A stretch of 64,000 nucleotides of DNA from assembly GCA_019634385.1 (NCBI GenBank), contig JAHQVK010000175.1:333-64332 (forward strand), given 5' to 3'. Below the pieces are notes generated by a model. That model did not search any database, had not been told where the DNA came from, and was given only the letters and a program-made list of their open reading frames with translations. Both the position numbers and the translations under genes were made by a program. Each line of letters opens with the position of its first letter. Position 1 is the first letter of the stretch. The DNA is from Myxococcales bacterium. GTDB taxonomy: Bacteria > Myxococcota > Kuafuiibacteriia > Kuafuiibacteriales > Kuafuiibacteriaceae. Positions 7,781 through 39,867 of the stretch are shown piece by piece.

Positions 7781-8016
7781 TAGGGCGCGTCTTCCAACTC
7801 CGGCTGCGGAGCTGACGCGGTACAGCAAAGACCCCTTATTGATTCTTGCAGAATCAATAAGGGGTCGCGCAGCCGGGCATAGCCCGGCGTAGAATCAGGA
7901 ACTTGGGTTCAACCCAAGTGATTTCTGCTGTATCCCGCGTTTGTGAGGGTTCGTCCCCTCGGTCGGGTACATCCCGTACCTTCCCTCCGGGGCCGAAGTT
8001 GAAAGACACGCCCTAG
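7781..8016. repeat. family A copy A3 (forward, variant core) carrying nested B2
   Basis: The A termini are intact. The interior is interrupted after gacgcggta by a family-B element. It starts immediately after repeat C1. Confidence 0.8.
7823..7930. repeat. family B copy B2 (reverse), nested in A3
   Basis: cagcaaagaccccttattgattcttgcagaatcaataa...cttgggttcaacccaagtgatttctgctg. Flanked by ta/ta inside A. Confidence 0.8.
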
Positions 8017-18529: not shown

Positions 18530-18862
18530 GTCGCCTTACGAGTACGGTGCGCGTCCCAATTCAGCAAGTGTCGCAAATAGCTAGCGCGTTTTATGGGCAT
18601 TGAAGGCTGGTTCTGAGGGGTGATGAACCGGACTGACACCTTCAAAGTGGGTGGTTCCCGCACTTTCGGGGGGGTATTGCCGGAGCGCTGCAAACCGCGT
18701 GATATTCGACGACCGAAATAGAGCTACGACGTTTCTTTTACGTCGGCGTGAAACTATTGCGAAGAATTTGCTTTGGCCGAATGTGCGGACTGGGGGGCAG
18801 GCTAGCCATAGCCCGCTGACTGAGAATCCCGATTAGATAGGTGGCCGCAAGTTACAGGATAT

Positions 18863-19159
18863 TAGGGCGTGTCTTTAAACTCCAGCTGCGGAGATGACGC
18901 TGTACAGCAGAAATCACTTGGGTTGAACCCAGGTTCCTGCTTCTACGCGGGGCTATGCCCCGCTGCGCGACCACTTGTTGATTCTTATAGAATCAACAAG
19001 TGGTGTTTGCTGTATCCCGTGTTTGCGAGGGTTCGGCCCCGAAGGGAGGGTACGGTAAGTACCGGACCGAGGGGCCCAAAAGGGGGGTGAAGCCACCGAC
19101 GCCTCACAAATGAGGGAAACAAGTCAGACCGCGGTCCGGAGTCTAAAGACACGCCCTAG
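18863..19159. repeat. family A copy A6 (forward) carrying nested B4
   Basis: A termini intact. B4 is inserted at the same internal ...gta|tcccgtg site as in A3 but in the opposite orientation. Confidence 0.85.
18905..19012. repeat. family B copy B4 (forward), nested in A6
   Basis: cagcagaaatcacttgggttgaacccaggttcctgcttctacgcggggctatgccccgctgcgcgaccacttgttgattcttatagaatcaacaagtggtgtttgctg. Flanked by ta/ta. Confidence 0.8.
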
Positions 19160-20007
19160 CTAGGTGGAATCATGGACGAGTACCAACCGTAAGAGACGTC
19201 CTAATGAGGGACAATACGGACTCAAGTCTGCAGAGCGAAGATGGAGCCTTTATATCTCCGCCCCGAATACAAAACACCACGAGGTGATCCGCCATTGGGG
19301 GTAAAGTGCTGGCGAAGATAATGTTTCGCGGTGCGCGACTGGTTTGGGGTCTTGTTTTTGGCTCTGCACCAAGCGGACCGACCTCGGCCTCTTGTTGAGG
19401 GGTGCTTACGTCGATTGAGGGATGCGTAAGTTGTTCCATTCTCGCTAGCCCATTGGGGCAAAACTATCCCTGAATGCAGAGCGCCACGGGACTAGAGTGA
19501 TATGTACAGTTTGCTGTACAATAGTTCTACGTAGCCCTAGCATTGATAGTCTCTATGTGACTGGAGTAGTTGGTATGGAGCGGTCACAAAGTTGATGGTT
19601 TTCAATACGCGGTTGCCGAAAGTTGGTCTCAGCGGGGTTTGTGGTCGCGGGGTGTTCTGGCGGTTGAATTGTCGGTTGCTACGACACTTAGGCGGAGTTG
19701 GGCACAAGTACACTATGCTCCGTCCCCGAATGGCGAGGACGAGTCACTAGGTAGGTTATTGACTGATACTGCGTGTGAGTCGGATTCATAGCTTTCTTGT
19801 GTATTGAGACAACGAATGCTTGAGTGTCTACGCTGTCTGTTGGTGAGGGTTGGGTGTTGGAAGGTTATAAAGTGCCTTAATCCGTTGTTGACCAGTTCGT
19901 AGGAGACCCACTTGACAGCTGGCTTGATGTATCGGTTCAAAGTTTCCCAGCATCAATGTGGGGAGGTGCACAGCTGATGTCGGCAGAGCTGGCAAAATTG
20001 ACTGGCT

Positions 20008-20121
20008 ACAGCGGAAATCACTTGGGTTGAATCCAAGTTCCTGCTTCTACGCGGGGCTATGCCCCGCTGCGCGACCCCCATGTTGATTCTTACAGAATCA
20101 ATTCAAGTGGTCTTTGCTGTA
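20008..20121. repeat. family B copy B5 (forward)
   Basis: It has the same structure as B4. It lies at the left edge of the AT-rich leader of the MotAB-helicase island. Confidence 0.8.
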
Positions 20122-20668
20122 TTAATCTCTTATCTAGACGCTTTCTGCGACTGGTTCCGCAGGGCGGAGAAAACTCGTTAACTGCGAGTTTTTCGAGTAT
20201 CTGTTTGACAAAACATTATCCTAGGAGATCGCCCGGCAGTTTTTGTGTTGATGGGATCAAGAGCACAAAAATGATATCTGTAACGTACCAATAATTGGGT
20301 AGCCGCGCGGTTGCTTACCCTGCCGGGGTATGCGTACCTCATGAGATCCTTGAATCAGCTTATGATAAATTACCATATTGAATGTTTTCCCAAAGTGCTT
20401 CAACTCTAATGAGGATATTTACACGTTGAACTCCGTGAGGTTTCCCACGTATATAAGCCGACATAGCAGTAGATAATAATGTAGGGTGACTAGATGAGCT
20501 GTAGAGATAACGATCGGTTAGGATTTAATCCTTGAACCTTAGCTATTGGGGGAGCGGAAAGATGGCACTTGCTTATGATGATCGAGGTCAAACAATGACC
20601 AACAGTCACCTATTGTATCTTCGGGGGCTTTGAGGGCAGACCCTCAATAGCACTCCGAAGCAAGTATA

Positions 20669-20675
20669 GAAGGAG
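20669..20675 (+). promoter_or_regulatory. Shine-Dalgarno-like AAGGAG upstream of TTG start of first operon gene
   Basis: aaggag lies 5-6 nt upstream of the TTG at 20681 that opens the 366-codon ORF. Confidence 0.4.
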
Positions 20676-20680
20676 CCTCT

Positions 20681-21781
20681 TTGAGAGCCGTCAACGACGA
20701 AGCGTGTAGAGTTGTTATCGAGCCGGATCGCTGTGATCTGCAAGAGGCAACCTACGATCCCCGGCTGTCATCGGCTGGACGAGATGATGGTCAGCATGTT
20801 GTTTATACAACAGTAGATCGGGTTGTCTATCAGCCGGCACCAGACGTCGTGGAGAAGATCCTCGATGCCAATGGATATTCAATGAATCTCGAGAATATCC
20901 TTGCGGTACTTGACGAGGTCAAAATTGGTTACCGGCTTCAGGTGTCGAACGAGCCTTTGGCCCCCAACTCTGTCCCCATCGCCAAGACTTTTCTGCCTGC
21001 ACTCACCCTGCGACTCCCGATGAAGAACCGGGTGGGTCCACTGCTTGCAAAGTTCTATGCTGAGGTTGGTGGATACCAGAATGAACTTGTTCGGCTGCGT
21101 GAGCAAGCGGGACGAGCTCATGGAGGACAACGAAAAGAGCTGGAAGACCTTCGTCGAGAGCACGAGAAACTCAAGGCGGAGAATGAGCAGCTTCGAACCC
21201 AGGTTGACAGTCTCAATGCTGAGTTGGGTCAACTTCGAAAATCCCACGCAGCGGCCAATCACGCCTTGGCTGAACAGAATATTTTGCCGGCTCAGGTGCG
21301 TGTGGCTCAGGTGCACAAGGTTGACTTGGAGGAGCGATATGTTGCGCTTAAGTCAGGGCGCAAAGTCTTCAGTGTCCCCTTGGTGGCCATCTGGGTCTAC
21401 CCGGAAAAAGACGAGCCGTGTTTAGTTAGTATCCAAGACGGTGAAGTATCGGGCGTATTTTTTCATGAAGGTGCTCAGCCTATCCCCGGTATGGTCCTGG
21501 GTGAGGTGCTTCATGTGGCTGAGGGGCAGTGCAAAGTTCGGGAAGAAAACCGCCGTACACGGGTCATTCAAGCTCAAAATCCTGCGGAGAAGGAACTCAT
21601 CAGTCAAATGAGACGAGGGGACCGAGTCTTGTTATTCCTTCACAACGATGAGCTTCTGAGGTTTGTTCCCTGTGGAACGTTCAACGCGGAAGCTTTTGCT
21701 CGCGCGGTACAAGAATCTATCGCTCGTTGGGAAATTGCACAGTCGGAAGAACAGGGGTCAGATGGAACAGGGCCTGTATAG
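20681..21781 (+). CDS. hypothetical cytoplasmic coiled-coil protein (first gene of MotAB-helicase operon)
   Basis: 366 codons with a probable TTG start. The central segment (residues ~130-190; ELVRLREQAGRAHGGQRKELEDLRREHEKLKAENEQLRTQVDSLNAELGQLRK) is heptad-rich. Its 3' end overlaps the next gene by 20 nt. Confidence 0.5.
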   Translation: MRAVNDEACRVVIEPDRCDLQEATYDPRLSSAGRDDGQHVVYTTVDRVVYQPAPDVVEKILDANGYSMNLENILAVLDEVKIGYRLQVSNEPLAPNSVPIAKTFLPALTLRLPMKNRVGPLLAKFYAEVGGYQNELVRLREQAGRAHGGQRKELEDLRREHEKLKAENEQLRTQVDSLNAELGQLRKSHAAANHALAEQNILPAQVRVAQVHKVDLEERYVALKSGRKVFSVPLVAIWVYPEKDEPCLVSIQDGEVSGVFFHEGAQPIPGMVLGEVLHVAEGQCKVREENRRTRVIQAQNPAEKELISQMRRGDRVLLFLHNDELLRFVPCGTFNAEAFARAVQESIARWEIAQSEEQGSDGTGPV

Positions 21782-22586
21782 TCGAGCCTATTTCTCTAAG
21801 CCGCGAGCGGGAAGAGATTTCTTATCTGTTGTTACCAGCGCAATTGGGCTGGGTGCTGTAGGTTGGGCCGTTACACAAACTAGCTCTTTGGAGCAACTAG
21901 TTGATGTACGGAGTATTTTCATTGTGGGAGTGGGAACGGTCGCCACTACTCTGCTACAATATAATTTCCGGACGTGTTGGCTCACCTTAGTATCTATTCT
22001 GCGGTCGCTTTTGGGTACGCCCGTCAAAGCCGCAGTGGCCATGCGGAGAGAAATTGACGACGCGATCATCAATGGTGATCACTTGGTTACCTTGCGTGAG
22101 GGAACTCGCGTGACCGGGGAGCTTCTAAACGATATCGTATTTATGTATCGGCAAGGGCTCTTGTTTGACGAGATCGACCAATTTGTTACCTCCCGTTTGG
22201 AGGCTGAATTGAGCGACAAGCGGGTAGCGGCAGAATTACTTCGACGAGCAGCGCTTACGGCACCAGCCCTCGGACTGTTTGGAACGGTATTAGGTCTGAC
22301 AGGGGTGCTCCGATCCATGGATGATCCAACCAAGATAGGGCCATTGATGTCCCTGGCCCTGATGACAACCGCTTATGGATCAGGCCTTGGATCCTTTGCG
22401 TGTACACCACTAGCTGGTCGATTAGAGCATCATAATACCGTTTTTGTGGAAGTCCATCGACAGCTATTGAGTCGGGTAGGGATCCTTCTTGCTCGCGAGG
22501 AGCGTACTTTTGGTGTGACCCATGCACCTCAGATTAGTGACAATGCATCAGACCAGATTAGAACTTCCGAGCACGCCGATAACTGA
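21762..22586 (+). CDS. MotA/PomA-family proton-channel subunit (stator-like, compact, no C-terminal tail)
   Basis: Four TM segments. TM3 APALGLFGTVLGLTGVL and TM4 ALMTTAYGSGLGSFACTPLAGRL carry the conserved prolines of MotA. The ATG at 21762 is preferred over the track start at 21663. Confidence 0.7.
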   Translation: MEQGLYSRAYFSKPRAGRDFLSVVTSAIGLGAVGWAVTQTSSLEQLVDVRSIFIVGVGTVATTLLQYNFRTCWLTLVSILRSLLGTPVKAAVAMRREIDDAIINGDHLVTLREGTRVTGELLNDIVFMYRQGLLFDEIDQFVTSRLEAELSDKRVAAELLRRAALTAPALGLFGTVLGLTGVLRSMDDPTKIGPLMSLALMTTAYGSGLGSFACTPLAGRLEHHNTVFVEVHRQLLSRVGILLAREERTFGVTHAPQISDNASDQIRTSEHADN

Positions 22587-23193
22587 CGAGTCTAGCGCAT
22601 TCTTCATCAGTCTAAGCGATCTGATGATCCTGCTGTGCGTCTTTTTTATTATGATGGTTAGTGTAAGTAAGATCGATATGGGCTCTTTTGAGCGGGTACG
22701 CAGTGCTCTACAAGGTCATACCCAAAATACCCTGGTTGAGCTGTCGGATCGATTGGAGGAGATGGTCACTGAAGAAGCTGGTATCTCCGGGGTAGAGGTC
22801 GGTATTGGTCGGGAGGGGGTACGCCTGGATTTTGAGGCCGCTGCTCTTTTTGATTCAGGCAGTGCTGTGCTGAAAACTGGCGCTTTAGACGGCATGTTAC
22901 CAATTTTTGAAATCATTAGTACCACTCGCTACCGTATTGATGTTGAGGGACACAGCGATGATGTTCCGCTACACCGAAAAAGTGGAGATGAACTAGAAAC
23001 AAATTGGTCACTGAGTGGACGGCGAGCGAGCAGCGTGGTTCATCGTCTACAGGAATTGGGTTTTCCGCCTAGCCGGCTTCGTATCGTGGGGTATGCGGCG
23101 ACGCGGCCCAAAGTACCTATTGATGGACTCAGCGAGGAGGCCCTTGATCGTGCCCGCGCTGAGAATCGAAGGGTGTCTATCTTAATTCGATGA
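22522..23193 (+). CDS. MotB-like protein: single TM with conserved Asp plus OmpA-like peptidoglycan-binding domain
   Basis: SLSDLMILLCVFFIMMV contains the protonatable Asp at the MotB/TolR/ExbD position. The C-terminal part has OmpA-like motifs (VEGHSDDVPL ... NWSLSGRRASSVVHRL). The alternative start at 22543 is equally possible. The stop overlaps the next start. Confidence 0.7.
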   Translation: MHLRLVTMHQTRLELPSTPITDESSAFFISLSDLMILLCVFFIMMVSVSKIDMGSFERVRSALQGHTQNTLVELSDRLEEMVTEEAGISGVEVGIGREGVRLDFEAAALFDSGSAVLKTGALDGMLPIFEIISTTRYRIDVEGHSDDVPLHRKSGDELETNWSLSGRRASSVVHRLQELGFPPSRLRIVGYAATRPKVPIDGLSEEALDRARAENRRVSILIR

Positions 23194-26100
23194 GCGCGGC
23201 TATGAACCCTCCGGAAATTGAGCATCCGCATGCTCTTCAGCAACAGGTGGTCGTTAAGCACGACCGTTGGCACCGCTTTGTCATCAGTCGGAACTTGGAT
23301 CCCAGTGGTCTATATAGTTATCGACTGACTAATGCAGCTAAGCGAGAGGCACTGATAGTGCCTCTTGATCTTTTTGAGCGCTTTAGGCTAGACGTGCGTT
23401 CTTTCGCAGTGAGTGACAGGGTTGGGGATGAGGACCAACCGACCTATACCGAGCTGCGTTTTGGGGGTCGAGTATGCTTTGCCTTTCAGCGGGGACGGTT
23501 ACCGGCTGACTGGATAAAAATTCTAAGTTTCGGTGCAGATGAAGTTCCCAATCAAGAGTTTTCTATTGCTGCATCCGCCGGAGCATCATTGGTATCGGTG
23601 TTGTTCCATCCGCAGCTTGAGCATCCTCATGATCTCTTAATTCGAATTGTAACCTACCACCGATTGTTTTCCGCGACATTTCAAGGAGGAAGCGAAAGTA
23701 TCACCAGTAATTTGCAACTAAGAAAAGATCTCCTTTGTCATGTTGATCGATATACGCCGTCGCTCGTAAAAAAATCGCCAGAGGCGCAAACGGAGGAAGT
23801 ACTCTCAGATCCGGCGATGTTGAAAGACCTAGCGGTGGGGACCCCAACCCCAAAAAATAGCTCAACTTTTAAGTCGCGTCTTGGGGAAAGAGATGAGGAA
23901 AACAAATATCTGGTGGACTATGAGTCCTTGTTTTCGAGTAGGGCTACCCGTGGTCGAAAGAAGAGTCCGTCTAATCCTGCTTTGGATTTAAATACAACCT
24001 CGTCATCGGACGAGAACGTGGGGCACTTTGCGGTGCCACTTTTAGCAAAAGATATAAAGGCGTTTGCCAAGGTACCATTTCGATGTGAGCTCTCTCGAGG
24101 GGATGCGAAAATCCTTCGACAAAATTTCTTAGACGACCGAGATGCTTCCTTCTTTCTTGGTTTCGAGATGCTGGACTGCATATTCGAACAGCGCAAGAAA
24201 TTATATACTTATCGATTTCCGTTATACTATATTCCGGTACGAATTGTAGAGTCGGGGCGAGAGGCTATTCTTCATCCGCTGGAGGATAATCGTTTCTACT
24301 TGAATCATTTTGCGTTGGCGAATCTTGTAGAAACCTATTCTTCGGCTGGGCAAGCGGCAAAGCGACTGTCCGGTTTATTATCTTCGCTGCTGACCCACCA
24401 GTTTATCGTCCGTGGTGCCCAAGATCGGGTTCGAATCATACGGATGCTTCCATCACATTCGGAGGTGTTTGAGCGAACGAGGGAAATACTTCTCGGGCTG
24501 CCCGGTGAAGAAGGAAAAGGAGGGCTACTTTCTGAGGTTAAAGTTCGTGCGATTGAATGTGACTTGGAAAGTGTTGTTCTTTACAAAGCACCTCAGTCTT
24601 CCTCCCCAATCATTCGTGCTTTGGACGATGATCTAACCAAGATTGTGGCTCTCGCGAAGCGAGGAAAAGGTGCTTACCAGTCATCGCTGTTGTCTCGCGC
24701 CCTTTCGGGGAATCTCGTGAGTGTTGATGGAGGCCAAGACGAGGCGTTTTCTCGCGCTCTGTCCATGCACAGCGCGCCAACGCGGGCGGTTCGGGCGTTG
24801 ATGGGACGTCTCAATTCAAGTGATCTGGTGCTGCTTGAAGGTCCCCCAGGAACCGGAAAGACCTACACGATTGCCAACCTTCTGATTCACTGCGTTGCGA
24901 CCGGTCGCCGTCTGCTAGTGGTCAGTGATCAGAAGGCAGCGATTCAGGCCCTGGTGGAGCAAATACAGCAGTATGTGGTCGGGTCAAAGAAGAATACCGC
25001 CGAGGGAAAGCAGCTAGGTTTGTTATGGCGACTTGCAATAAAGGTAGTGGACGAGCTCCCGGAGAACACCGAATCTTTAGCTTCTTGGTCGAGGCAAGTT
25101 CGGCGTATGCTCGGCGTGGACATATCTTTAGAATTGGACTGGGGCAGTCCGGTTGATGGGTATGAGCGGGCGATTTCTCGTATAGATGTAAAAATAGCAG
25201 AAGCTGTGAAAGAAGTTGGGCTGGCCGTTCGGCGTCGCTTCGGACAGGATAAGCGATGGCGAATCCCTGTGGTGGCGGACAAGTCGGAGCATCCTAACTC
25301 AGAGAATGACGTGCAGGCTGCTCTTGAGTTGTCAGAGCGTTTACTTAGCATGGAGGGACTGCGGGAGTGGTTGGCTAGCTATTTGGGATCTCTTCAGCGT
25401 TTACTTGAGCTTAAGCTTTCCGCAATGTTCGAGTTGTTCGCGTTACGAGGCCGCAAAGATGTGGCTGTTCAACGTCTTGAACGGACCGTTGATTGGCTGA
25501 GGCGCTTGCTCCTCGAAATGCCGACCAGCATGGAAGAGTATGAGCAGCTTGAGGTAGCGGATACGGTAAAGGCGGTTCAGGCCGGCCTTGCACCCCGATG
25601 GAGAGAGTTCTATCCCCCGAAACTGGGTTGGGCGGCGAGAGCCGCTCGACTCGTGAGTCCGTTCTCTGGTGGGGCGCAACTCCGTAAATTGGTTCGGGAG
25701 TTGATCTCTATGGTTGAGAAGCAGCTGCTACTTTGGGAGCAGCAGCCAGCCTGGGATGGTGAGGTATGGCAGAGCCTTGGACGACTGCACGCGACAATAT
25801 CGCCGGATACTAAGGGATCTATTGATATTGCGCTGGAATTGCTTCTTGCTGAGTGTAGTGATCTTCACCAGGAAGAGTCGATTCACGAGAAGCTAGAATA
25901 CATTGCTCAAATGCAGCGAGATCGAGATGATCTGGTGCGTCAGCAATTTTTGTATGGGCTTGGGCGTATCGGTCAGCGCGCGTTTGCCTCTGCTCGTGGT
26001 GGGGGAACCAGTCGCCTCACGAGTATACTGGCGATGCTCGACCGCTTAGAGTCAGCACAATCTTGGGCTAAAGCTCAAGATACTGTCCGAGAGCTCCGAG

Positions 26101-27440
26101 AGTTGCTGTTTGATGTTTTCCCGATTTGGTTGTCTCGCAAGCAGGCTGTTTCGTTCTTACTACCATGTCAGGAGCAGAGTTTTGACCTTGTGGTGGTGGA
26201 TGAGGCGACGCAGTGTCGGGTTGATGATGCGCTTCCTCTGTTATTTCGGGGGAAGAAGCTCATGGCGGTTGGAGATGAACGCCAAACAGTACTCGCAAAG
26301 AACTCGGCGATCGATGATTACCTGTTTGACGACTTTGAGCTTGATGAGCATCTAAGCTTAGCTCAGGCTCGTGGTATTAAAGGCGGGGGATCTCACCTTT
26401 TTGGTCTTATTAAACGAATCAAGCAGGCATCGGTCATGTTGGATGAGCACTACCGCTGTCCGCCGGATATAATTGAGTTTTCGAATAGGTATGTATATGA
26501 AAACCAACTGCGTACCATGCAGTGGAAGATGCTCGGTTCCCCACAGTCGGTGATTGTTGATAATAGTGAATCTCGAGTACCACCCAGCGAACGGGTCCGT
26601 TCTGGAAAGTACAAGGGCACTGAAATCAGCATGATCGATCGATTTTTCGTTTACGTAGCTCGAACCATTCGACGTCTGGAGCGAGAAACCGGTCAGGAAA
26701 TAGATCCAGAAACGGATGTGGCGATTGTCTACTTTCTTCTTAAAAACGAGGCCTATATTAAAGATAAAAAGAGTGAACTGCTGAGAAAGTTACCCAGGGG
26801 TCGAGATATTCTCGATGGAGCGGGCGCGGCTCTTCAGGGTAAAGAGCGGGATTATATCTTTTATCTATGGGATATGACTCGATACAATATGGCTGCATTT
26901 CGTCAAGGAGATGATGAAAGTAAGCGTAAGGGTGAGCTAAATGTCCTGATGAGTCGTCCAAAAAAGCGAGCGTATCATTTTCTCCATAGAGAATTTGACC
27001 AGCTTAAGCATCAAACCAGTTCGATATCAGACTACCTTATGCGTGTTCAGCAAAGGAGCTATCGTAACCGAAGTTTGTCCAGTGAGCGAGGTTCTGGGTT
27101 GCTCATGCGGATGCTACTCGAGCGAGCACTGTCTGAAGATGGGGTAGAGCGCAGCGAGCTTCAACTGGAGGTCCCCATTGGTAACCAGTTACTTGGTGTT
27201 GATCTCATGTGGCTCCCTCCTAAGAAACGAGAGGAACAGTCTTCAATTGGACTGGTAGATCTGAGTATATTTGGCAGTAGTAGAGATCCTGGTCAAGATG
27301 TGGTGGACTATTTCTTTCAGGTGCAGCGAGCGATACCACGGGTCCAACCAGTATTTGGCTTTGTACACGAGTTTGCTCGTTCGTCTTCGGTGGTGATAGC
27401 TCGGCTTAAGTCACTCGCCCGGCAACGAAAAGAGGATTAA
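23190..27440 (+). CDS. 1416-aa multidomain protein: DUF4011-like N-terminal region, Upf1/DNA2-type SF1 helicase core (AAA_11/AAA_12), uncharacterised C-terminal domain (possible nuclease)
   Basis: The N-terminal YRFPLYYIPVRIV...ILHPLEDNRFYLNHFALANL block resembles DUF4011. Walker A LLEGPPGTGKTYTIANLL is at ~aa 545. Motif II VVVDEATQCRVDDA, then MAVGDERQ, and motif IV-like YRCPPDIIEFSNRYVYENQL follow. The C-terminal 170 aa (GVDLMW...IGLVDLSIF) are unassigned. Confidence 0.75.
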   Translation: MSAAMNPPEIEHPHALQQQVVVKHDRWHRFVISRNLDPSGLYSYRLTNAAKREALIVPLDLFERFRLDVRSFAVSDRVGDEDQPTYTELRFGGRVCFAFQRGRLPADWIKILSFGADEVPNQEFSIAASAGASLVSVLFHPQLEHPHDLLIRIVTYHRLFSATFQGGSESITSNLQLRKDLLCHVDRYTPSLVKKSPEAQTEEVLSDPAMLKDLAVGTPTPKNSSTFKSRLGERDEENKYLVDYESLFSSRATRGRKKSPSNPALDLNTTSSSDENVGHFAVPLLAKDIKAFAKVPFRCELSRGDAKILRQNFLDDRDASFFLGFEMLDCIFEQRKKLYTYRFPLYYIPVRIVESGREAILHPLEDNRFYLNHFALANLVETYSSAGQAAKRLSGLLSSLLTHQFIVRGAQDRVRIIRMLPSHSEVFERTREILLGLPGEEGKGGLLSEVKVRAIECDLESVVLYKAPQSSSPIIRALDDDLTKIVALAKRGKGAYQSSLLSRALSGNLVSVDGGQDEAFSRALSMHSAPTRAVRALMGRLNSSDLVLLEGPPGTGKTYTIANLLIHCVATGRRLLVVSDQKAAIQALVEQIQQYVVGSKKNTAEGKQLGLLWRLAIKVVDELPENTESLASWSRQVRRMLGVDISLELDWGSPVDGYERAISRIDVKIAEAVKEVGLAVRRRFGQDKRWRIPVVADKSEHPNSENDVQAALELSERLLSMEGLREWLASYLGSLQRLLELKLSAMFELFALRGRKDVAVQRLERTVDWLRRLLLEMPTSMEEYEQLEVADTVKAVQAGLAPRWREFYPPKLGWAARAARLVSPFSGGAQLRKLVRELISMVEKQLLLWEQQPAWDGEVWQSLGRLHATISPDTKGSIDIALELLLAECSDLHQEESIHEKLEYIAQMQRDRDDLVRQQFLYGLGRIGQRAFASARGGGTSRLTSILAMLDRLESAQSWAKAQDTVRELRELLFDVFPIWLSRKQAVSFLLPCQEQSFDLVVVDEATQCRVDDALPLLFRGKKLMAVGDERQTVLAKNSAIDDYLFDDFELDEHLSLAQARGIKGGGSHLFGLIKRIKQASVMLDEHYRCPPDIIEFSNRYVYENQLRTMQWKMLGSPQSVIVDNSESRVPPSERVRSGKYKGTEISMIDRFFVYVARTIRRLERETGQEIDPETDVAIVYFLLKNEAYIKDKKSELLRKLPRGRDILDGAGAALQGKERDYIFYLWDMTRYNMAAFRQGDDESKRKGELNVLMSRPKKRAYHFLHREFDQLKHQTSSISDYLMRVQQRSYRNRSLSSERGSGLLMRMLLERALSEDGVERSELQLEVPIGNQLLGVDLMWLPPKKREEQSSIGLVDLSIFGSSRDPGQDVVDYFFQVQRAIPRVQPVFGFVHEFARSSSVVIARLKSLARQRKED

Positions 27441-27724: not shown

Positions 27725-27908
27725 GGGTGTCTTTACGCTCCGGCTACGGAGATGATGCCGTGTCCCACGTTTGTGAGGGGTCGTGCTCGGAGGGAGGGTA
27801 CCGGGATGTATTGGGTCGAGTGGCCCGAAAAGGGGGCGAAACCACCGACACCCTCACAAACGCGGGAAAGAGTCAGAACGCGGTCCGGAGTTTATAGACA
27901 CGCCCTAG
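27721..27908. repeat. family A copy A7 (forward)
   Basis: tagggggtgtctttacgctccgg...gtttatagacacgccctag. Shares CTAG with the end of D1. Confidence 0.8.
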
Positions 27909-29851
27909 CAAGAGAACGGTTGCTTCTGTGTTCGAGCCGTTTCTGTATAGTGTGCTGGGAGTTGATTTAGTGATTCGCGAAGCTGTTGCTCACCAAGCTC
28001 AAGGAGCTTCTCGCCCCGATTCAGAAGATCCTCTACAGTGTGAAACCAACGAGTATATTGATCTATGAAGTTTCGGCCCAGCTCGGTAGGTGTTTTAGCC
28101 ATACGTTCCGCTGCGTAGCGTTCAATTTCAATTTCTAGAAACATAGTCTGAATAATGGGCGTGCTGAACGAGAGGAAAATATCACCTCCCTCAATGATAA
28201 CCTTTTGACGTATGATATCAAGAGTTTGGTAGGGATCCGTTTTTATCAGAGCGTCAAGATGTAACTCGGAGATATCGGGCGGACTATAGTTTATTTGGCA
28301 TTGTGAGGAGAATGATTTGCCTAAATCTAGCAATTTCCGTGTTTTCTGATTGGCTTCTCGTGTATCCTGAATTTGTGCTAAGAGCTGTTGCTGTTTAGAA
28401 GACTGCTCTGTTTGGTCTTTCGGCAGACAAGCAGCTAGCAGGAGGGGGCGGGGATCAGTACCCTTTCTGAGAGAGGTTAAGAGCTCAGGTAGTTCGCCAA
28501 CTTCGGTACGTGGAATATGAAGACCACGGGCCGTTGCGTTGATAACCCGGCCTGAGTAGTCTGCAATGTCGAGATCAAATTGCCGTTGGAATTCCAGCCA
28601 CCGGGAGGTGGTGGTGACGGTATCGCCTCGGGAGCCTTTGGCCTCAATTGCAGGCTGTGTGTTGAACCACTTGATCCTATTTCCGGTTGCAGTACCCTCA
28701 GCGTGTGTATTGCCGTTTTCGGCAAAACATAAATCTTGTCCAACAAGGATAATGGGATTACATCCCGCTAGAGCAGCGATTCGAAAGGCTAAGTTACCTG
28801 CGGAACCACCAAACTCAAACTCTGGTTCATCAACACCTAGCCATTGATGAAAATCTGCGGAGCGAAAAATCAGAGCAAGCGGGCCTTGGTAGTTAGATAG
28901 TATACTTGGTTGCAGTACTGGACAACATGCAAGTACTGTGTCCGGCGCTTCAAGATTCTCAAAATGACGAATGGTCATCTCTACGCGCTCTCGAGAGGTG
29001 GCGACATGTGGGCGAATTCCAGCAGCCTGTAAGATGCGTATAGATGTGTCGGGACAAAAAATAGGTACTTGGTCTTGAATGGGTTTTAAGTATGGAAGAC
29101 TGGCTTGTAAGGAAGGGCCCGCAGAAGCAACGATCGCGGGACGGCCTTTTAATATGTCTTTGAAAGCCCAGATGCTTTTCGATCGAGAAAGTATAGGTAG
29201 GTTGTGACAAATGTTTTCAAGGCCAAGCAAGACATCATTGTAGTCGTTGCCTATCATACGGGCACCGTTTTTCACTGAGTCTAAGAATATATTGGATGCT
29301 GCAACAACATAGTTGGGATATCGATGGGCAGCTCCGTGGGGTACAACCTGAGCAATACTTTTGCAGAAAAAATTATAGCGAGCATGGATGGTGTTCACGT
29401 TGAGCCTGAGTTTCAGCTCGTCGAGTGTTTGACCTATTTGCCAATCGACATGTTTATGGGCAATGGCAGAACGTAAATCAGTCATTCGTATTGCGCACTG
29501 GAAAAGGGCTACATCGGGCTCAACAACGAGGATAGTGCGATCTCTACCTTTGAAGAGTTGGAGAAGCGCATTGAGCTCCAGGCCGAGACCCAGCCCGAAG
29601 AGTCCGACCAAACGGCATTTCTGGATATCTTCGCGGCGTTGTAGCTGCTCCAGTGCGCTAGTAACAGTAGGTGTATACCATTTCTCCTGGTTGTTGGTGT
29701 CCAATAAATTGAGCGTTCCGTCAGGATCTTGGACCGTCCGTAGTGATGAAGGAGAGAGTGTGCTGGCAAGCTCGACGAGCTGCGGTCGATGCTCTTGTAG
29801 AGCAGCCATATTGGCGTCAAAGAATGGCCCGTGCATGCAGTCCCTTTTCAT
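27905..29851 (-). CDS. Maf-like (motility-accessory-factor family) protein with MptE-like/DUF115 domain
   Basis: 648 aa. AIVASAGPSLQASLPYL...FCPDTSIRILQAAGIRPH matches the GPSL-containing DUF115 core of Maf glycosyltransferase-family proteins. No flagellin genes lie nearby. Confidence 0.45.
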   Translation of the reverse strand: MKRDCMHGPFFDANMAALQEHRPQLVELASTLSPSSLRTVQDPDGTLNLLDTNNQEKWYTPTVTSALEQLQRREDIQKCRLVGLFGLGLGLELNALLQLFKGRDRTILVVEPDVALFQCAIRMTDLRSAIAHKHVDWQIGQTLDELKLRLNVNTIHARYNFFCKSIAQVVPHGAAHRYPNYVVAASNIFLDSVKNGARMIGNDYNDVLLGLENICHNLPILSRSKSIWAFKDILKGRPAIVASAGPSLQASLPYLKPIQDQVPIFCPDTSIRILQAAGIRPHVATSRERVEMTIRHFENLEAPDTVLACCPVLQPSILSNYQGPLALIFRSADFHQWLGVDEPEFEFGGSAGNLAFRIAALAGCNPIILVGQDLCFAENGNTHAEGTATGNRIKWFNTQPAIEAKGSRGDTVTTTSRWLEFQRQFDLDIADYSGRVINATARGLHIPRTEVGELPELLTSLRKGTDPRPLLLAACLPKDQTEQSSKQQQLLAQIQDTREANQKTRKLLDLGKSFSSQCQINYSPPDISELHLDALIKTDPYQTLDIIRQKVIIEGGDIFLSFSTPIIQTMFLEIEIERYAAERMAKTPTELGRNFIDQYTRWFHTVEDLLNRGEKLLELGEQQLRESLNQLPAHYTETARTQKQPFSC

Positions 29852-30827: not shown

Positions 30828-30961
30828 CAGCCGGTTGGTTTGGCTAGGTAGCTCTTCTTCGGGAGGTTCTTTCGGTGGAATATCTCGAGCGGTCCGCCTC
30901 CTTATTGGTTACATACCCTTTGTGTACTCTCATTTTTTGCAAAAAAATTTCAGCGATAGTC

Positions 30962-31147
30962 TAGGGCTGTTTTTATACTCCAGCTGTGGAAATGCCGCCT
31001 TAGCCTGCGTTTGTGAGGGGTCAGCGTCGGAGGGAGGGTACCGCACGTACCGGGCCACGAGGCCCGAAAGGGTGGCGAAGCCACCGACTCGTAGCAAATG
31101 CGGGAAACAAGTCAGAACGTGGTTCGGAGTTGCAAGACACGCCATAG
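30962..31147. repeat. family A copy A8 (forward, degenerate)
   Basis: ctagggctgtttttatactccagc...gttgcaagacacgccatag. Diverged about 20%. Confidence 0.65.
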
Positions 31148-31194
31148 TGTTGGCGATCGTGGCTCAGTCAAATCAACGGCTGCTAGAGCCAGAA

Positions 31195-31307
31195 TACGGC
31201 AAAGACCCCTTGAATTGCTTCTGTAAGAATCACCAAGCGGTCGCGCAGCGGGGCACAGCCCGGCGTAGAAGCAGTCACTTGGGTTCAACCCAAGTGATTT
31301 CTGCTGT
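31195..31307. repeat. family B copy B6 (reverse, degenerate start)
   Basis: ...caaagaccccttgaattgcttctgtaagaatcaccaagcggtcgcgcagcggggcacagcccggcgtagaagcagtcacttgggttcaacccaagtgatttctgctgtag. It lies 48 bp from A8. A solo D-type terminus (atcaacggctgctag, 31172-31187) sits between them. Confidence 0.7.
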
Positions 31308-31504
31308 AGTCTTGAGCTGTCTATCTTTATCATCAATAAGACTCCCTTGCTGACCGGATAGATGTTCGGCTGTCCTCCCAGAACCTATGAGTTGCCGAGC
31401 CGTACTTGGGTAAAGCACAGTATTGTACCCCTCCGATCAACAAGACTTTGAATTACATAAGTCAGCTATTGTCAGCCACCTTTGGCAAGACGCTCCGCAT
31501 TGTT

Positions 31505-36723: not shown

Positions 36724-36838
36724 CTACAGCGGAAATCACTTGGGTTGAACCAAAGTTCCTGCTTCTACGCTGGGCTATGCCGCGCTGCGCGACCCCTTGT
36801 TGATTCTCACAGAATCAATTCAAGTGGTCTTTGCTGTG
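36724..36838. repeat. family B copy B7 (forward)
   Basis: ctacagcggaaatcacttgggttgaaccaaagttcctgcttctacgctgggctatgccgcgctgcgcgaccccttgttgattctcacagaatcaattcaagtggtctttgctgtg. Confidence 0.8.
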
Positions 36839-37159: not shown

Positions 37160-38740
37160 GTGGATGCTAAAGCCACCCGGCCGCTTGGTACAAGCTGGTT
37201 ACGAGGTGAACCAGAAGCTCAACCTTTTCTACCACAAATCTACACAGACTCTGTTCAGCGCAGGCTGTCTGTGAATCGAGCTGCCAGGGTTTGTGCGGAA
37301 TCGAAGGCTGTTTTGGCTTTGAGGGAGAGTTGGGACTCTAGCCGACCAAGAGCGCTGGAGGCTTGGGGGCGGTTGGCTGCGGGGCAGGCCACAGTGGTGA
37401 TTACTGGTCAGCAAGCGGGTCTTCTACTTGGTCCAAGGTATACTTTTCATAAAGCGCTGAGCGCAATTCTCATTGCCCAAGCGCTCGAAGCAGAAACCAG
37501 AGTACCGTGCGTGCCGGTTTTTTGGGTTCAAGACGAAGATCACGATTTTCCAGAAGTTGCCAGTTACGCCTGGATAACTCGTGCAGGGAAGCTCCGGCAC
37601 TATCAGTTATCTGACGAACAGCCGCGAGTTCCAGTTGGAGATCGTCAAATCCCGACTTCGATTCACAAAGTCTTGGACGCTTTGGAGGCTGACCTTTCAG
37701 GAGAGCCGTTTGCGGATGAAGCTTTTGCGTTGACTCAAATCTGGCGAGATCGGTCATCTTGGTCTGAAGCGTTTTGCGAAACTCTAGTTGAGGTCTTTCG
37801 GGATGAACCGCTGCTGGTGATAAGAGGGCGCAGCAATGAGATGAGTGCGCTTGCACAGAGTTATCATCACCTAGCGCTCGAAGAACGAGAACCAGTGGAG
37901 ACTTGTCTTCGTGAACAAACTTCTCGAATTGAGGCGGCTGGGTTTAAGATTCAGGTCCCGATTGTCACAAAGCGCTTCTTGTCTTTTTACCAGCCGGACG
38001 GTGTTGGCTCACCAAGATATCGCTTTGATGTTACTCCGAACGGTTGCCTCAGAATACGTGATCGAACGTGGACCTTGCCGGAGATCCTTGAAAGCTTGCA
38101 CAAGGAACCACAACGGTTTAGCACCTCCGCCTTGCTCCGCCCCATTGTTCAAGACGGTGTCTTCCCGGTAGTTGCTCAGATTGTTGGTCCAGGCGAGGCA
38201 TCGTATTTGGCGCAGCTAGAACCTACTAGGCAGTTGTTTGGGGTTCCAACTCCGATGGTCATCCCACGTGGCCAGGCCCGATGGATTGAGCCTCCTGTAC
38301 GCCGGTGCTTAATGGCGATGCACGCAACTGCTGACGAGGTCTGTGGAGATCGGTACGCGTTTCTGACCCGGCGCTCGACAATATCCTCGTCACCAGAACG
38401 CCTTAGGGAGCAGGTGTTGGGGGTCCTTAGTGAACATCTTCTTAACTTTGGTGAGCTCTCACCGGTCTTAGATAAAGCTAGACGTAGAACGTTCCGAAGT
38501 GTTCAGAGGAATATCGACCGGTTTGTGGGACAGATGACACGCCAGTTAGCGACACAAGATCAGCTGGCGGTTTGGCGTCTATCTGTCGCTAGGACTGCAT
38601 TACTCCCTAAGCAACACCCGCAGGAACGATTTCTTGGCATATTGGACCTGGTAGCTCGCTATGGCTCGGCTCAGCTCAAGCACCAGTTTAAGGCGGAGTA
38701 CCAACCATACACCCATCAAAAAATGGAGTTCACTCTGTGA
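37160..38740 (+). CDS. bshC: bacillithiol biosynthesis cysteine-adding enzyme
   Basis: VVITGQQAGLLLGPRYTFHKALSAILIAQ...VPVFWVQDEDHDFPEV closely matches the conserved N-terminal block of BshC/YllA (GGQQAGLLTGPLYTIHK...IFWVAGEDHDLDE). 526 aa. Coupled (GTGA) to a downstream GT4 gene. Confidence 0.7.
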   Translation: MDAKATRPLGTSWLRGEPEAQPFLPQIYTDSVQRRLSVNRAARVCAESKAVLALRESWDSSRPRALEAWGRLAAGQATVVITGQQAGLLLGPRYTFHKALSAILIAQALEAETRVPCVPVFWVQDEDHDFPEVASYAWITRAGKLRHYQLSDEQPRVPVGDRQIPTSIHKVLDALEADLSGEPFADEAFALTQIWRDRSSWSEAFCETLVEVFRDEPLLVIRGRSNEMSALAQSYHHLALEEREPVETCLREQTSRIEAAGFKIQVPIVTKRFLSFYQPDGVGSPRYRFDVTPNGCLRIRDRTWTLPEILESLHKEPQRFSTSALLRPIVQDGVFPVVAQIVGPGEASYLAQLEPTRQLFGVPTPMVIPRGQARWIEPPVRRCLMAMHATADEVCGDRYAFLTRRSTISSSPERLREQVLGVLSEHLLNFGELSPVLDKARRRTFRSVQRNIDRFVGQMTRQLATQDQLAVWRLSVARTALLPKQHPQERFLGILDLVARYGSAQLKHQFKAEYQPYTHQKMEFTL

Positions 38741-39861: not shown

Positions 39862-39867
39862 GGTATC

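What the first reader, a model, noticed from the sequence alone, without database searches (positions are those of the whole stretch)
23190..27440. Unusual domain layout of the 1416-aa effector: about 540-aa DUF4011-like N-terminus, about 460-aa insertion between helicase motifs I and II, and an orphan C-terminal module
Walker A sits at about residue 545 and motif II (VVVDEATQ) only at about residue 1010. The RecA1 domain therefore carries a very long, partly coiled-coil insertion (EELS...LRLRL-like segments).

The N-terminal block containing FPLYYIPV and LNHFALANL resembles the DUF4011 module seen in long Upf1-like bacterial helicases.

The last 170 aa (ELQLEVPIGNQLLGVDLMWLPP...IGLVDLSIFGSS...VVDYFFQ) carry acidic residues in a spacing compatible with a PD-(D/E)xK or Vsr-like nuclease fold. 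This is inference from residue spacing only.
Basis: inference. Interest (0 to 1): 0.6.

Follow-up and report, generated by a model that had tools for sequence, protein, structure and literature searches.

The report
Stator-linked giant helicase with nuclease-like tail
The 1416-residue protein is a real, highly diverged helicase carrying an unnoticed single-strand-binding domain and a worn-down nuclease-type tail, and it always sits behind a flagellar-motor-like membrane pair, which suggests an undescribed Zorya-like machine of untested function.

Summary
The ORF and its motif spacing are real: Walker A is at 551-558 and motif II at 1001-1008.

The domain reading is only partly right.
- **N-terminus.** It is three parts, not one DUF4011 block. 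Residues 17-165 form a PUR-alpha/Whirly-type domain (Foldseek prob 1.0). Residues 193-274 are a disordered linker with a conserved short motif. Residues 275-510 form an alpha/beta domain whose hairpin core only faintly resembles half of DUF4011.
- **Insertion.** The motif I-II insertion (about 375 unannotated residues) is conserved and free of gaps. It looks like a bundle of short helices rather than a long coiled coil. Even longer insertions occur in DUF4011 helicases.
- **C-terminus.** It is a sequence orphan. It folds alpha-beta-beta-beta-alpha-beta like DUF559/Vsr/MTES_1575 nucleases and sits where MTES_1575 sits. D1338 is invariant and D1357 nearly so. The family's Glu and His are replaced, and no Lys is conserved, so nuclease activity is doubtful.

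**Context.** The gene is always the last of a four-gene cassette: an orphan coiled-coil protein, a short PomA-like MotA, a MotB with plug, Asp and OmpA domain, and the helicase. The cassette is rare, patchy and surrounded by housekeeping genes. It matches no described Zorya type.

The most likely role is a Zorya-like, envelope-anchored nucleic-acid effector. This is inferred, not shown.

The parts
20681..21781 (+). First cassette gene ('cc366', 366 aa): conserved N-domain (LDANGY.LNLENIL..LD), a central coiled coil at about 135-200, and a beta-rich C-domain. It is an orphan.
   Evidence: There is no real Pfam, PADLOC or NCBIfam hit; only coiled-coil noise appears. Homologues occur only beside the helicase. 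It is 100% identical to KTR25_14905 of a Myxococcales MAG. Alignment A6.
21762..22586 (+). MotA/PomA-like stator A subunit. The ORF opens at 21663; the probable start is the ATG at 21762, which gives about 275 aa.
   Evidence: Pfam MotA_ExbB scores 62.9 bits against a cut-off of 22.9. The best NCBIfam match is PomA at 2e-22, below the equivalog cut-off. There is no PADLOC ZorA hit. Homologues are 260-273 aa. The TM3/TM4 motifs PALGLFGTV.GL and MSLAL.TTAYG are conserved.
22522..23193 (+). MotB-like stator B subunit with plug, a transmembrane Asp and an OmpA-type peptidoglycan-binding domain.
   Evidence: Pfam MotB_plug and OmpA are both above cut-off. NCBIfam MotD/MotB score 1e-32 to 1e-22, and PADLOC ZorB only 5e-15. 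'S(F/L)SDLM' Asp and 'TNWSLSGRRA' are conserved in 6/6. Its stop codon overlaps the helicase start (ATGA).
23190..27440 (+). 1416-aa SF1B (Upf1-like) helicase, the large subunit of the cassette.
   Evidence: Motifs I, Ia, II, III, V and VI are conserved, nearly every core residue invariant, in 58 homologues: GPPGTGKT, VVSDQ, DEATQ, GDxxQ, LQGKER, GELNVLMSRP.
23238..23684 (+). PUR-alpha/Whirly-type domain (aa 17-165): two beta-beta-beta-beta-alpha repeats. Predicted to bind single-stranded nucleic acid.
   Evidence: AlphaFold2 pLDDT is about 85-95. Foldseek against PDB finds PURA/Pur-alpha repeat I-II (8chv, 5fgp, 8cht, 3k44) at E 2e-4 to 3e-3, prob 1.0 and TM(target) 0.56-0.62. WHY1 and MRP1/2 follow. 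There is no Pfam hit.
23766..24011 (+). Disordered linker (aa 193-274) containing the conserved short motif FKSRLGER-x5-Y.VDY..LF (aa 227-248).
   Evidence: pLDDT is below 50. The motif is conserved across 58 members while its flanks are variable and contain gaps.
24012..24719 (+). Domain B (aa 275-510): an alpha/beta domain with a long beta-hairpin (319-355). Its core faintly resembles the C-terminal half of DUF4011.
   Evidence: pLDDT is about 85-95. hhalign gives P 0.02. 3 of 150 shuffles reach the score. There is no hit in Pfam or PDB sequences, and none in the 50 listed Foldseek matches, all to domain A or with poor superposition.
24795..24989 (+). N-terminal part of RecA1 with Walker A (551-558) and motif Ia.
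   Evidence: AAA_11 matches 537-600 to profile positions 10-75.
24990..26114 (+). Insertion in RecA1 (aa 601-975): conserved, gap-free, Leu/Glu/Arg-rich, probably a bundle of short helices.
   Evidence: There is no family hit. Column identity is 0.31-0.58 with gaps of about 0. Pro/Gly breaks occur every 20-46 residues. It has no detectable similarity to the insertions of DUF4011 helicases. Its structure was not predicted.
26115..26975 (+). C-terminal part of RecA1 (motifs II and III) plus RecA2 (motifs IV-VI).
   Evidence: AAA_12 covers 1073-1258 at 25.6 bits against a cut-off of 27. hhalign gives Prob 99.6 to DUF4011 helicases. This is the most conserved part of the protein.
27090..27437 (+). 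C-terminal restriction-endonuclease-like domain (aa about 1301-1416): alpha-beta-beta-beta-alpha-beta. D1338 lies on beta2, D1357 at the end of beta3, and D1373/Q1377/R1380 on or just after alpha2.
   Evidence: AlphaFold2 pLDDT is 89-96. Foldseek lists are enriched in PD-(D/E)xK and DUF559 folds. It aligns collinearly with MTES_1575. It is a sequence orphan in 1.84 billion representatives.

Best explanation
**Identity.** The protein is a strongly diverged offshoot of the bacterial 'DUF4011 - SF1B helicase - Vsr-like nuclease' lineage. The anti-phage proteins Hhe and ProA belong to that lineage. This offshoot has been rebuilt as the large subunit of a fixed four-gene cassette: orphan coiled-coil protein, short PomA-like MotA, MotB with plug/Asp/OmpA, then the helicase.

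**Anatomy (shown by prediction and comparison).**
- PUR/Whirly-type single-strand-binding domain (17-165).
- Disordered linker with a conserved docking-type motif (193-274).
- Alpha/beta domain with a DUF4011-like hairpin core (275-510).
- RecA1 split by a conserved insertion of about 375 residues, probably helical (601-975).
- RecA2.
- A C-terminal restriction-endonuclease-fold domain at the position of MTES_1575. It keeps two Asp residues but has lost that family's Glu and His and has no Lys.

**Mechanism (inferred).**
1. A peptidoglycan-anchored, ion-conducting MotA5B2-type unit tethers or gates the helicase at the inner face of the membrane. The link would run through the coiled-coil protein and/or the linker motif.
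2. The PUR domain captures single-stranded or melted nucleic acid.
3. The intact ATPase core translocates 5'->3', as SF1B enzymes do.
4. The C-terminal domain binds the substrate, or cleaves it using a non-canonical site.

By analogy with Zorya, the most likely target is DNA entering through the envelope.
For: - **Helicase core.** The core is intact, and the nearest annotated relatives are ProA, Hhe, PDC-S37 and MkoA.
- **PUR fold.**
- **Domain architecture.**
- **C-terminal fold and collinearity with MTES_1575.**
- **Conserved Asp residues.**
- **Synteny.** The cassette is syntenic in every locus with enough flank: 10 of the loci L001-L012 (9 distinct places, L001 and L003 being one contig) plus L082-L084. 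These come from Oligoflexales, Myxococcota and Gammaproteobacteria, including Teredinibacter sp. ISS155.
- **Gene coupling.** Genes overlap, and the helicase start overlaps the MotB stop as ATGA.
- **Stator features.** The MotB Asp, plug and OmpA motifs and the MotA TM3/TM4 motifs are conserved.
- **Orphan partners.** cc366 and the C-terminal module occur nowhere outside the cassette.
- **Distribution.** Only 11 loci in one-genome-per-species for 185,579 species, and patchy within genera.
- **Precedent.** Zorya is a MotAB-like unit paired with a helicase/nuclease (PMC11946911, PMC11890865).
Against: - No experiment exists.
- Flanks in 8 examined contexts are housekeeping genes, with no defence genes, integrases or transposases.
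- There is no copy on plasmids or phages.
- MotA lacks the long ZorA tail and has no ZorA hit.
- Links to DUF4011 and MTES_1575 fail every HMMER-level test. They rest on P of about 0.02 profile alignments plus collinearity.
- No Foldseek hit for the C-terminus reaches E<=1e-3.
- The catalytic set is incomplete.
- No physical contact between the stator, cc366 and the helicase was modelled.
Confidence: 0.5

Rival explanations
1. The architecture is the same, but the C-terminal domain is a dead nuclease fold. It would be kept for DNA binding, dimerisation or docking. The protein would then act purely as a membrane-tethered translocase or remodeller, for example stripping or reeling nucleic acid. 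Any cleavage would be done by host enzymes.
For: - The Glu and His of the MTES_1575 'E.DG..H' motif are replaced by Ile/Val and Phe in all members.
- The conserved Glu of helix alpha1 ('fE') is lost, and there is no conserved Lys.
- Sequence-level links to nuclease families are absent.
Against: D1338 is invariant and D1357 (Asp or Glu) nearly invariant. They sit on adjacent strands facing the same side. D1373, Q1377, R1380 and E1394 are also nearly invariant. This pattern is more typical of a functional site than of a pure scaffold.
Confidence: 0.35
2. The cassette is not an immune system. It is an accessory, envelope-coupled nucleic-acid machine of Oligoflexales, Myxococcota and a few Gammaproteobacteria. 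Possible roles include DNA uptake or export, or membrane-localised RNA processing. The stator would supply anchoring or energy.
For: - Neighbourhoods are housekeeping in all 8 contexts, with no mobile-element marks.
- Several Oligoflexus species carry it.
- PUR and Upf1-like proteins often act on RNA (established knowledge).
- The stator is flagellar-type rather than Zorya-type.
Against: - The cassette is very rare and patchy: only one Teredinibacter species in the scan.
- The nearest annotated relatives of the helicase are anti-phage proteins.
- No uptake, secretion or RNA-metabolism genes are linked to it.
Confidence: 0.3
3. Domain B and the C-terminal domain are unrelated to DUF4011 and MTES_1575. 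The family would be an independent Upf1-like lineage that acquired unrelated accessory domains, and the similarities would be chance or convergence.
For: - All HMMER tests are negative.
- hhalign probabilities are about 2%, and 3 of 150 shuffles match the domain B score.
- Foldseek E-values are 0.04-0.3.
Against: - Both weak matches fall in the same order as in DUF4011 helicases.
- The C-terminal match is part of one continuous Prob 99.6 alignment.
- 0 of 150 shuffles reach the C-terminal score.
- DUF559/Vsr folds recur at the top of two independent libraries.
Confidence: 0.2
4. The MotAB pair is an ordinary flagellar stator, and its position next to the helicase is incidental.
For: The best family matches are PomA/MotP and MotD/MotB. 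A Maf flagellin glycosyltransferase gene lies downstream on the other strand.
Against: - The four-gene order is identical in three phyla, with different flanks and overlapping genes.
- All NCBIfam flagellar equivalog cut-offs are missed by wide margins.
- No flagellar genes flank the cassette in the other loci.
Confidence: 0.03

Closest known systems
DUF4011 helicase / Vsr-like nuclease proteins (Hhe, NF042953; ProA, NF058533; PADLOC PDC-S37)
   Same: - SF1B AAA_11/AAA_12 core, with best partial matches of 1e-20 to 1e-23.
- A very long insertion between motifs I and II.
- A restriction-endonuclease-fold domain directly after RecA2.
- A faint DUF4011-like hairpin upstream of Walker A.
   Different: - No Pfam DUF4011, MTES_1575 or DUF3320 hit.
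- Scores are 72-78 bits against equivalog cut-offs of 1500-2000.
- It has an extra PUR domain and a disordered linker.
- The nuclease motif E.DG..H is degenerate.
- It is embedded in a MotAB cassette, whereas, from my own knowledge, Hhe is a single-gene system.
Zorya anti-phage systems, types I-III (ZorAB plus ZorC/D, ZorE or ZorF/G)
   Same: - An operon with a MotA-like and a MotB-like protein carrying a peptidoglycan-binding domain, followed by a large nucleic-acid enzyme. ZorD is a helicase/nuclease (PMC11946911, PMC11890865).
- MotB gives weak PADLOC ZorB hits.
   Different: - MotA is 260-275 aa, PomA-like, without the ZorA tail and with no ZorA hit.
- The partners are an orphan coiled-coil protein and an SF1B helicase, not ZorC/D/E/F/G.
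- It is not found in defence islands.
- Defence has not been tested.
PUR-alpha / Whirly-fold single-strand binders
   Same: Two beta-beta-beta-beta-alpha repeats forming one PUR domain, with TM 0.56-0.62 and prob 1.0.
   Different: Sequence identity is 10-14%, and there is no PurA Pfam hit. Here the domain is fused to a helicase.
Flagellar stator PomAB/MotAB
   Same: Domain content, size, the transmembrane Asp, the plug and the OmpA domain.
   Different: It scores below all equivalog cut-offs. It always travels with the helicase and cc366, and never with flagellar genes in the loci examined.

Membership tests
SF1B / Upf1-like helicase | Motifs I, Ia, II, III, V and VI present and conserved; AAA_11/AAA_12 match | tested here: met
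   AAA_11 scores 51.3 bits (cut-off 27), and AAA_12 scores 25.6 (cut-off 27, just below). The PDB sequence hits are IGHMBP2, Sen1 and Upf1. The motifs are conserved, nearly every core residue invariant, in 58 members.
DUF4011 (PF13195) | Match to the Pfam model at or above the gathering score of 22.2 bits | tested here: not met
   There is no hit for the window protein at E<=10, and none in 21 family members. A seed HMM built from 4 true DUF4011 domains gives E>=0.38 at inconsistent positions.
DUF4011 (PF13195) | Remote homology by profile-profile comparison, in the same position upstream of Walker A | tested here: inconclusive
   hhalign gives P 0.018-0.02 over 47-49 columns. 3 of 150 column shuffles reach the score. 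The position is collinear. No DUF4011 structure is available to compare.
MTES_1575 / DUF559 (Vsr-like endonucleases) | Match to PF18741 or PF04480 | tested here: not met
   No hit in the window protein or in 27 members. A seed HMM gives E>=0.19. An exhaustive HMMER search of the C-terminal profile finds only the family itself.
MTES_1575 / DUF559 (Vsr-like endonucleases) | Alpha-beta-beta-beta-alpha-beta restriction-endonuclease fold, located right after RecA2 | tested here: met
   The model has this topology. 3hrl (DUF559) is the top PDB hit, and three DUF559 proteins plus one Vsr appear in the BFVD list with TM(target) 0.46-0.60; all have E>1e-3. The collinear alignment has Prob 99.6. 0 of 150 shuffles reach the score.
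MTES_1575 / DUF559 (Vsr-like endonucleases) | Conserved 'D ... E.DG..H' residues | tested here: not met
   The first Asp is kept (D1338, 58/58). In 'GiVDL..F' the Glu position is Ile/Val and the His position is Phe.
PD-(D/E)xK nuclease superfamily | Catalytic D ... (D/E)xK triad | tested here: not met
   D1338 and D1357 (Asp or Glu) are conserved. The residue two positions after D1357 is Ser, Cys, Ala or Gly, and no Lys is conserved anywhere in 1300-1416. R1380 is nearly invariant.
Hhe / ProA anti-phage proteins (NCBIfam equivalogs) | Score at or above the curated cut-off (2000 / 1500 bits) | tested here: not met
   The scores are 71.8 and 77.5 bits, and the best-scoring stretches fall in the motif II/III region (about 969-1109).
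Zorya | ZorA: MotA-like protein with a long C-terminal tail | tested here: not met
   The MotA-like protein is 260-275 aa and has no PADLOC ZorA hit.
Zorya | ZorB-like protein with a peptidoglycan-binding domain | tested here: inconclusive
   PADLOC ZorB models score 5e-15 to 6e-5. MotD/MotB models score much better, at 1e-32.
Zorya | Subtype partner ZorC/D, ZorE or ZorF/G | tested here: not met
   There are no such PADLOC hits for cc366 or the helicase.
Zorya | Protects against phage | not testable with these tools
   This requires an experiment.
PUR domain (PUR-alpha-like) | Two beta-beta-beta-beta-alpha PUR repeats packing into one domain | tested here: met
   The secondary structure is E19-58/H59-74 and E85-127/H128-138. 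Foldseek gives prob 1.0, E 2e-4 and full-length coverage of PURA repeats I-II. The sequence-level PurA model does not match.
Flagellar stator MotAB/PomAB | MotA_ExbB plus MotB_plug/OmpA, a transmembrane Asp, and equivalog-level scores | tested here: inconclusive
   The domains and the Asp are present. All equivalog cut-offs are missed: 79.6 against 341, and 113 against 283. No flagellar genes are linked in the other loci.

The most novel reading that the evidence does not exclude
The cassette is a fourth, undescribed way of coupling a 5:2 ion-driven stator unit to a nucleic-acid enzyme. A flagellar-type (PomA-like, tail-less) MotAB unit would use a dedicated coiled-coil adaptor (cc366) to recruit, gate or mechanically drive a PUR-domain SF1B helicase at the membrane. 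Its nuclease-fold tail would have been re-tooled. The function could be immune, as a 'Zorya-like type' with entirely different soluble parts, or something not yet known.
Probability: 0.3. Interest if true: 0.85.

Novelty: new variant of a known kind. Interest (0 to 1): 0.6.

Why it matters
Zorya showed that MotAB-type motors can serve immunity, but only three partner sets are described. This is a small, sharply bounded family of about 60 clusters among 1.84 billion representatives. It pairs a flagellar-type stator with an orphan coiled-coil protein and a helicase that combines a PUR domain with a degenerate Vsr-type fold.

If the parts interact, the family offers a compact system for asking how stator units signal to cytoplasmic enzymes without the ZorA tail. 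One copy sits in a named, non-MAG genome (Teredinibacter sp. ISS155), presumably a cultured isolate. The family would also show how the Hhe/ProA helicase lineage is re-used in multi-gene systems.

At the protein level, it gives DUF4011-type helicases a first tentative structural reading. It also adds a bacterial helicase-fused PUR domain.

Tried and rejected
- **Family scans of each accessory segment.** Pfam, PADLOC and NCBIfam scans of the whole protein and Pfam scans of each segment and of 21-27 family members found nothing beyond the helicase core.
- **PDB sequence searches.** Searches with the whole protein and with profiles of the C-terminus, domain B and cc366 returned only helicase cores, coiled-coil noise or chance hits.
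- **Solved DUF4011 structure.** None exists.
- **Word-indexed profile search with domain B.** It returned only two N-terminal fragments and missed the family itself, so it says nothing about DUF4011.
- **Exhaustive HMMER with the C-terminal profile.** It found only family members. P0112, which looked like a tail-less sister protein, is a truncated member.
- **Propensity and periodicity analysis of the insertion.** It was too crude to assign structure.
- **Plasmid and phage searches with the N-terminus.** No match.
- **Literature.** No description of a helicase-linked short MotAB cassette was found in the Zorya papers or in a MotAB evolution survey. A search for 'PLuB' returned nothing containing that term.
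- **Rejected readings.** 'Incidental adjacency to a flagellar stator' is rejected by synteny. 'The C-terminus is a helicase 1B/2B accessory domain' is rejected because it models as an independent domain after RecA2.

Full report
**1. The observation**

ORF 23190..27440 (+) exists and encodes 1416 aa.
- GPPGTGKT lies at 551-558 and VVVDEATQ at 1001-1008, so 442 residues separate motifs I and II.
- All peptides quoted for the N- and C-termini are present at 343-350, 371-379, 1323-1332, 1353-1364 and 1371-1377.
- The 'EELS' and 'LRLRL' strings are not in the protein.
- Pfam sees only the helicase core. AAA_11 scores 51.3 bits and is split in two, its best stretch at 537-600; the second stretch was not printed, and other helicase models pick up again at about 969-996. 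AAA_12 covers 1073-1258 and is just sub-threshold.
- The nearest solved relatives by sequence are IGHMBP2, Sen1 and Upf1, which makes this an SF1B helicase.

**2. A small, sharply bounded family**

A search of 5.8 billion clusters gave 38 homologues spanning most or all of the query (38-72% identity, mostly about 1390-1470 aa). Scores then drop from 931 to 81 bits. The weaker hits are DUF4011 / AAA_11 / AAA_12 / MTES_1575 helicases.

With the exhaustive search, 58 members of at least 1340 aa were aligned, at 31-72% identity to the window protein. The helicase motifs are conserved, nearly every core residue invariant (GPPGTGKT, SDQ, DEAxQ, GDxxQ, LQGKER, GELNVLMxR), so the ATPase is almost certainly active.

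**3. N-terminus: three parts, not one DUF4011 block**

The AlphaFold2 model of 1-535, built from a 34-sequence alignment, has pTM 0.70. It shows three parts.
- **Domain A (17-165).** It consists of two beta-beta-beta-beta-alpha units with pLDDT of about 85-95. Foldseek against PDB matches PUR-alpha repeat I-II (8chv, 5fgp, 8cht, 3k44) at E 2e-4 to 3e-3, probability 1.0, TM(target) 0.56-0.62 and full target coverage. Whirly proteins and MRP1/2 follow. This is a PUR/Whirly-type fold, known for binding single-stranded nucleic acid.
- **Residues 193-274.** They are predicted to be disordered. They contain the conserved motif FKSRLGER-x5-Y.VDY..LF between variable, gapped flanks. This looks like a docking motif; that reading is an inference.
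- **Domain B (275-510).** It is a confident alpha/beta domain with a long hairpin at 319-355, followed by the helix LNH.ALANL.

DUF4011 was tested in several ways.
- Pfam gives no hit, even at E<=10, for the segment or for any of 21 family members.
- An HMM built from true DUF4011 domains gives no hit.
- hhalign gives P of about 0.02. It aligns 'ylGFEI.DaIF...fRFPLYY..V.I...(E/D)...LNH' with 'lfLA.GfL.W...r.aPLlLvPv.L...ED...N'.
- 3 of 150 column shuffles reach this score.
- The match falls in the collinear position, upstream of Walker A.

The verdict is a faint, partial resemblance of about 50-70 residues to the C-terminal half of DUF4011. It is not established homology, and it certainly does not cover 540 residues.

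**4. The insertion**

- Residues 601-975 match no family model.
- They are conserved (column identity 0.31-0.58) and almost free of gaps, so they form a folded domain of fixed length rather than a linker.
- The composition is Leu/Glu/Arg-rich.
- Pro/Gly-free runs are 46, 36 and about 20-24 residues. This suggests a bundle of short helices rather than a long coiled coil.
- I could not predict its structure, and crude propensity analysis was uninformative.
- True DUF4011 helicases from the same search have about 500-900 residues between the two AAA_11 halves. The long split is therefore a trait of the clade.
- The inserted sequences themselves show no detectable similarity between the two groups.

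**5. C-terminus**

The model of 1262-1416 has pLDDT 86 and pTM 0.72. It shows a connector helix followed by alpha(1303-1313) - beta(1324-1329) - beta(1336-1341) - beta(1352-1357) - alpha(1367-1379) - beta(1385-1390) - alpha. This is the restriction-endonuclease core topology.

Foldseek finds nothing at E<=1e-3, but the tops of both lists are dominated by this fold.
- **PDB:** 3hrl (DUF559, rank 1, prob 0.54, TM(target) 0.49), XisH, Can2, Card1, MspJI, TnsA and the R2 endonuclease.
- **BFVD:** proteins named PD-(D/E)XK, Mrr, 'restriction enzyme', RecB-family, UL24, three DUF559 (TM(target) 0.46-0.60) and Vsr. The two top hits have prob 0.97-0.98.

In a full-length profile-profile alignment with DUF4011 helicases, one continuous Prob 99.6 alignment runs from motif II through RecA2. 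It ends with 'Q.sVvVGdP..kVDLm......siGiVDL..F' aligned on 'V.tqVGvsgFRiDl......l.gveCDGatyH' of MTES_1575. The isolated comparison scores P 0.02, and 0 of 150 shuffles reach it.

At the HMMER level the module is an orphan.
- The C-terminal profile, searched against 1.84 billion representatives, finds 62 proteins. All are family members or fragments of them.
- No member hits PF18741 or PF04480.

Residue conservation across 58 members:

| Residue | Conservation |
|---|---|
| D1338 | 58/58 |
| D1357 | 55/58 (otherwise Glu or gap) |
| D1373 | 55/58 |
| Q1377 | 54/58 |
| R1380 | 57/58 |
| E1394 | >=90% in the first 34-member set |

No Lys is conserved. The Glu and His of the MTES_1575 'E.DG..H' motif are Ile/Val and Phe in every member.

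The fold assignment (Vsr/DUF559-like) is reasonably supported. Homology with MTES_1575 is likely. Catalytic competence is uncertain: I put an active nuclease at roughly 35-40%.

**6. Context**

The gene is the last of four tightly packed genes.
- **cc366 (20681-21781).** It has no family and a central coiled coil.
- **MotA_ExbB protein.** It is best matched by PomA and is about 275 aa from the probable start at 21762.
- **MotB_plug + OmpA protein.** Its stop overlaps the helicase start as ATGA.

The same four genes, in the same order, occur in every related locus with enough flank. These are 10 of the loci L001-L012 (9 distinct places, since L001 and L003 are the same contig) plus L082-L084, from Oligoflexus and Oligoflexales, Myxococcota and Gammaproteobacteria, including Teredinibacter sp. 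ISS155. The flanks differ in every case.

cc366 homologues occur only in these cassettes. That search also identifies the window as a Myxococcales MAG, through a 100% match to KTR25_14905.

MotB keeps the transmembrane Asp (S(F/L)SDLM), the plug and the OmpA 'NWSLSGRRA' motif. MotA keeps the TM3/TM4 motifs and a conserved cytoplasmic surface. This is consistent with a working, peptidoglycan-anchored ion channel unit.

The cassette is rare: 11 loci among one genome each of 185,579 species. It is absent from the plasmid and phage collections. The flanking genes are housekeeping, with no defence genes or integrases.

**7. Comparison with the known**

- **DUF4011 helicases.** The helicase core is closest to ProA, Hhe, PDC-S37 and MkoA. 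It scores 72-80 bits against cut-offs of 1500-2000 for the two with curated cut-offs, ProA and Hhe, and the best-scoring stretches fall in the motif II/III region. It is not a member of those equivalogs.
- **Zorya.** The operon logic resembles Zorya: a MotAB-like pair plus a helicase/nuclease (PMC11946911, PMC11890865). The defining ZorA tail and the ZorC/D/E/F/G partners are absent, and no ZorA model matches. Only three Zorya types are described in those papers.
- **MotAB survey.** A 2025 survey of MotAB homologues does not mention helicase-linked stators.

I therefore file this as a new variant. At the protein level it is a rebuilt DUF4011-type helicase. At the system level it is a Zorya-like arrangement with different parts.

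**8. Mechanism**

Shown by prediction or comparison:
- the domain order;
- an intact ATPase;
- the PUR fold;
- the restriction-endonuclease fold with a degenerate motif;
- obligate synteny with a stator-like pair.

Inferred:
- The stator tethers or gates the helicase through cc366 and/or the linker motif.
- The PUR domain captures single strands.
- Translocation is 5'->3', as in SF1B enzymes.
- The C-terminal domain binds or cuts the substrate.
- The target is incoming foreign DNA.

Overall confidence in this picture is 0.5. The defence role alone is about 0.35-0.4. The main rivals are a dead nuclease fold (0.35, compatible with the rest of the picture), a non-immune envelope-coupled function (0.3), and no true relation to DUF4011 or MTES_1575 (0.2).

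Noticed in passing
window 18903-18996, 20007-20101, 7876-7920 (-), 36737-36781; probably also inside 30835-31353: A dispersed, highly structured repeat of about 100 nt. Two copies lie 1104 nt apart (96%/88% identity). The 45-nt core is found four times with at most 3 mismatches, where 0 are expected by chance. It folds into three hairpins, including a perfect 12-bp stem, with MFE -46.9 and z = -7.6. There is no Rfam match. It may be a REP/MITE-like element or a small RNA family.
   Followed up: partly
window 18530-20680: A 2.1-kb stretch directly upstream of the cassette has no ORF longer than 94 aa and holds two copies of the repeat. Homologous loci have only about 170-340 bp at this position.
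   Followed up: no
window 30835-31353 (+): This 172-aa TTG ORF is probably spurious. Its translation contains the peptide VAQRG.A.RRS..LGSTQVISAV, which also appears in ORFs that overlap the repeat copies. It is therefore likely to be a read-through of another repeat copy.
   Followed up: no
window 23868-23933 (helicase aa 227-248): The short motif FKSRLGER-x5-Y.VDY..LF is conserved inside an otherwise variable, disordered linker. It is a candidate docking site for MotA or cc366.
   Followed up: partly
window 27905-29851 (-): A Maf-type flagellin glycosyltransferase (MptE-like plus Maf_flag10_N) lies immediately downstream on the opposite strand. It is the only flagellum-related gene seen near any copy of the cassette.
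   Followed up: no
P0114 / P0115 (JGI metagenome proteins, 465-467 aa): These proteins cover only the helicase N-terminus (PUR domain, linker and domain B; 35% identity over residues 19-474) and end inside domain B. They may be cut by contig ends or frameshifts, or they may be genuine split genes.
   Followed up: no
window 21663-21781 and 22522-22586: The cassette ORFs overlap one another, by about 20 nt between cc366 and MotA from the probable ATG at 21762, by 44-65 nt between MotA and MotB, and by 4 nt between MotB and the helicase. This suggests translational coupling. The 100% identical database protein P0001 starts at Met5 and is 1412 aa.
   Followed up: no
window 37160-42333: A bshC-like gene, a GT4 glycosyltransferase and a PIG-L deacetylase lie in a row, which looks like a bacillithiol-type thiol biosynthesis cluster. 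It is unrelated to the finding.
   Followed up: no
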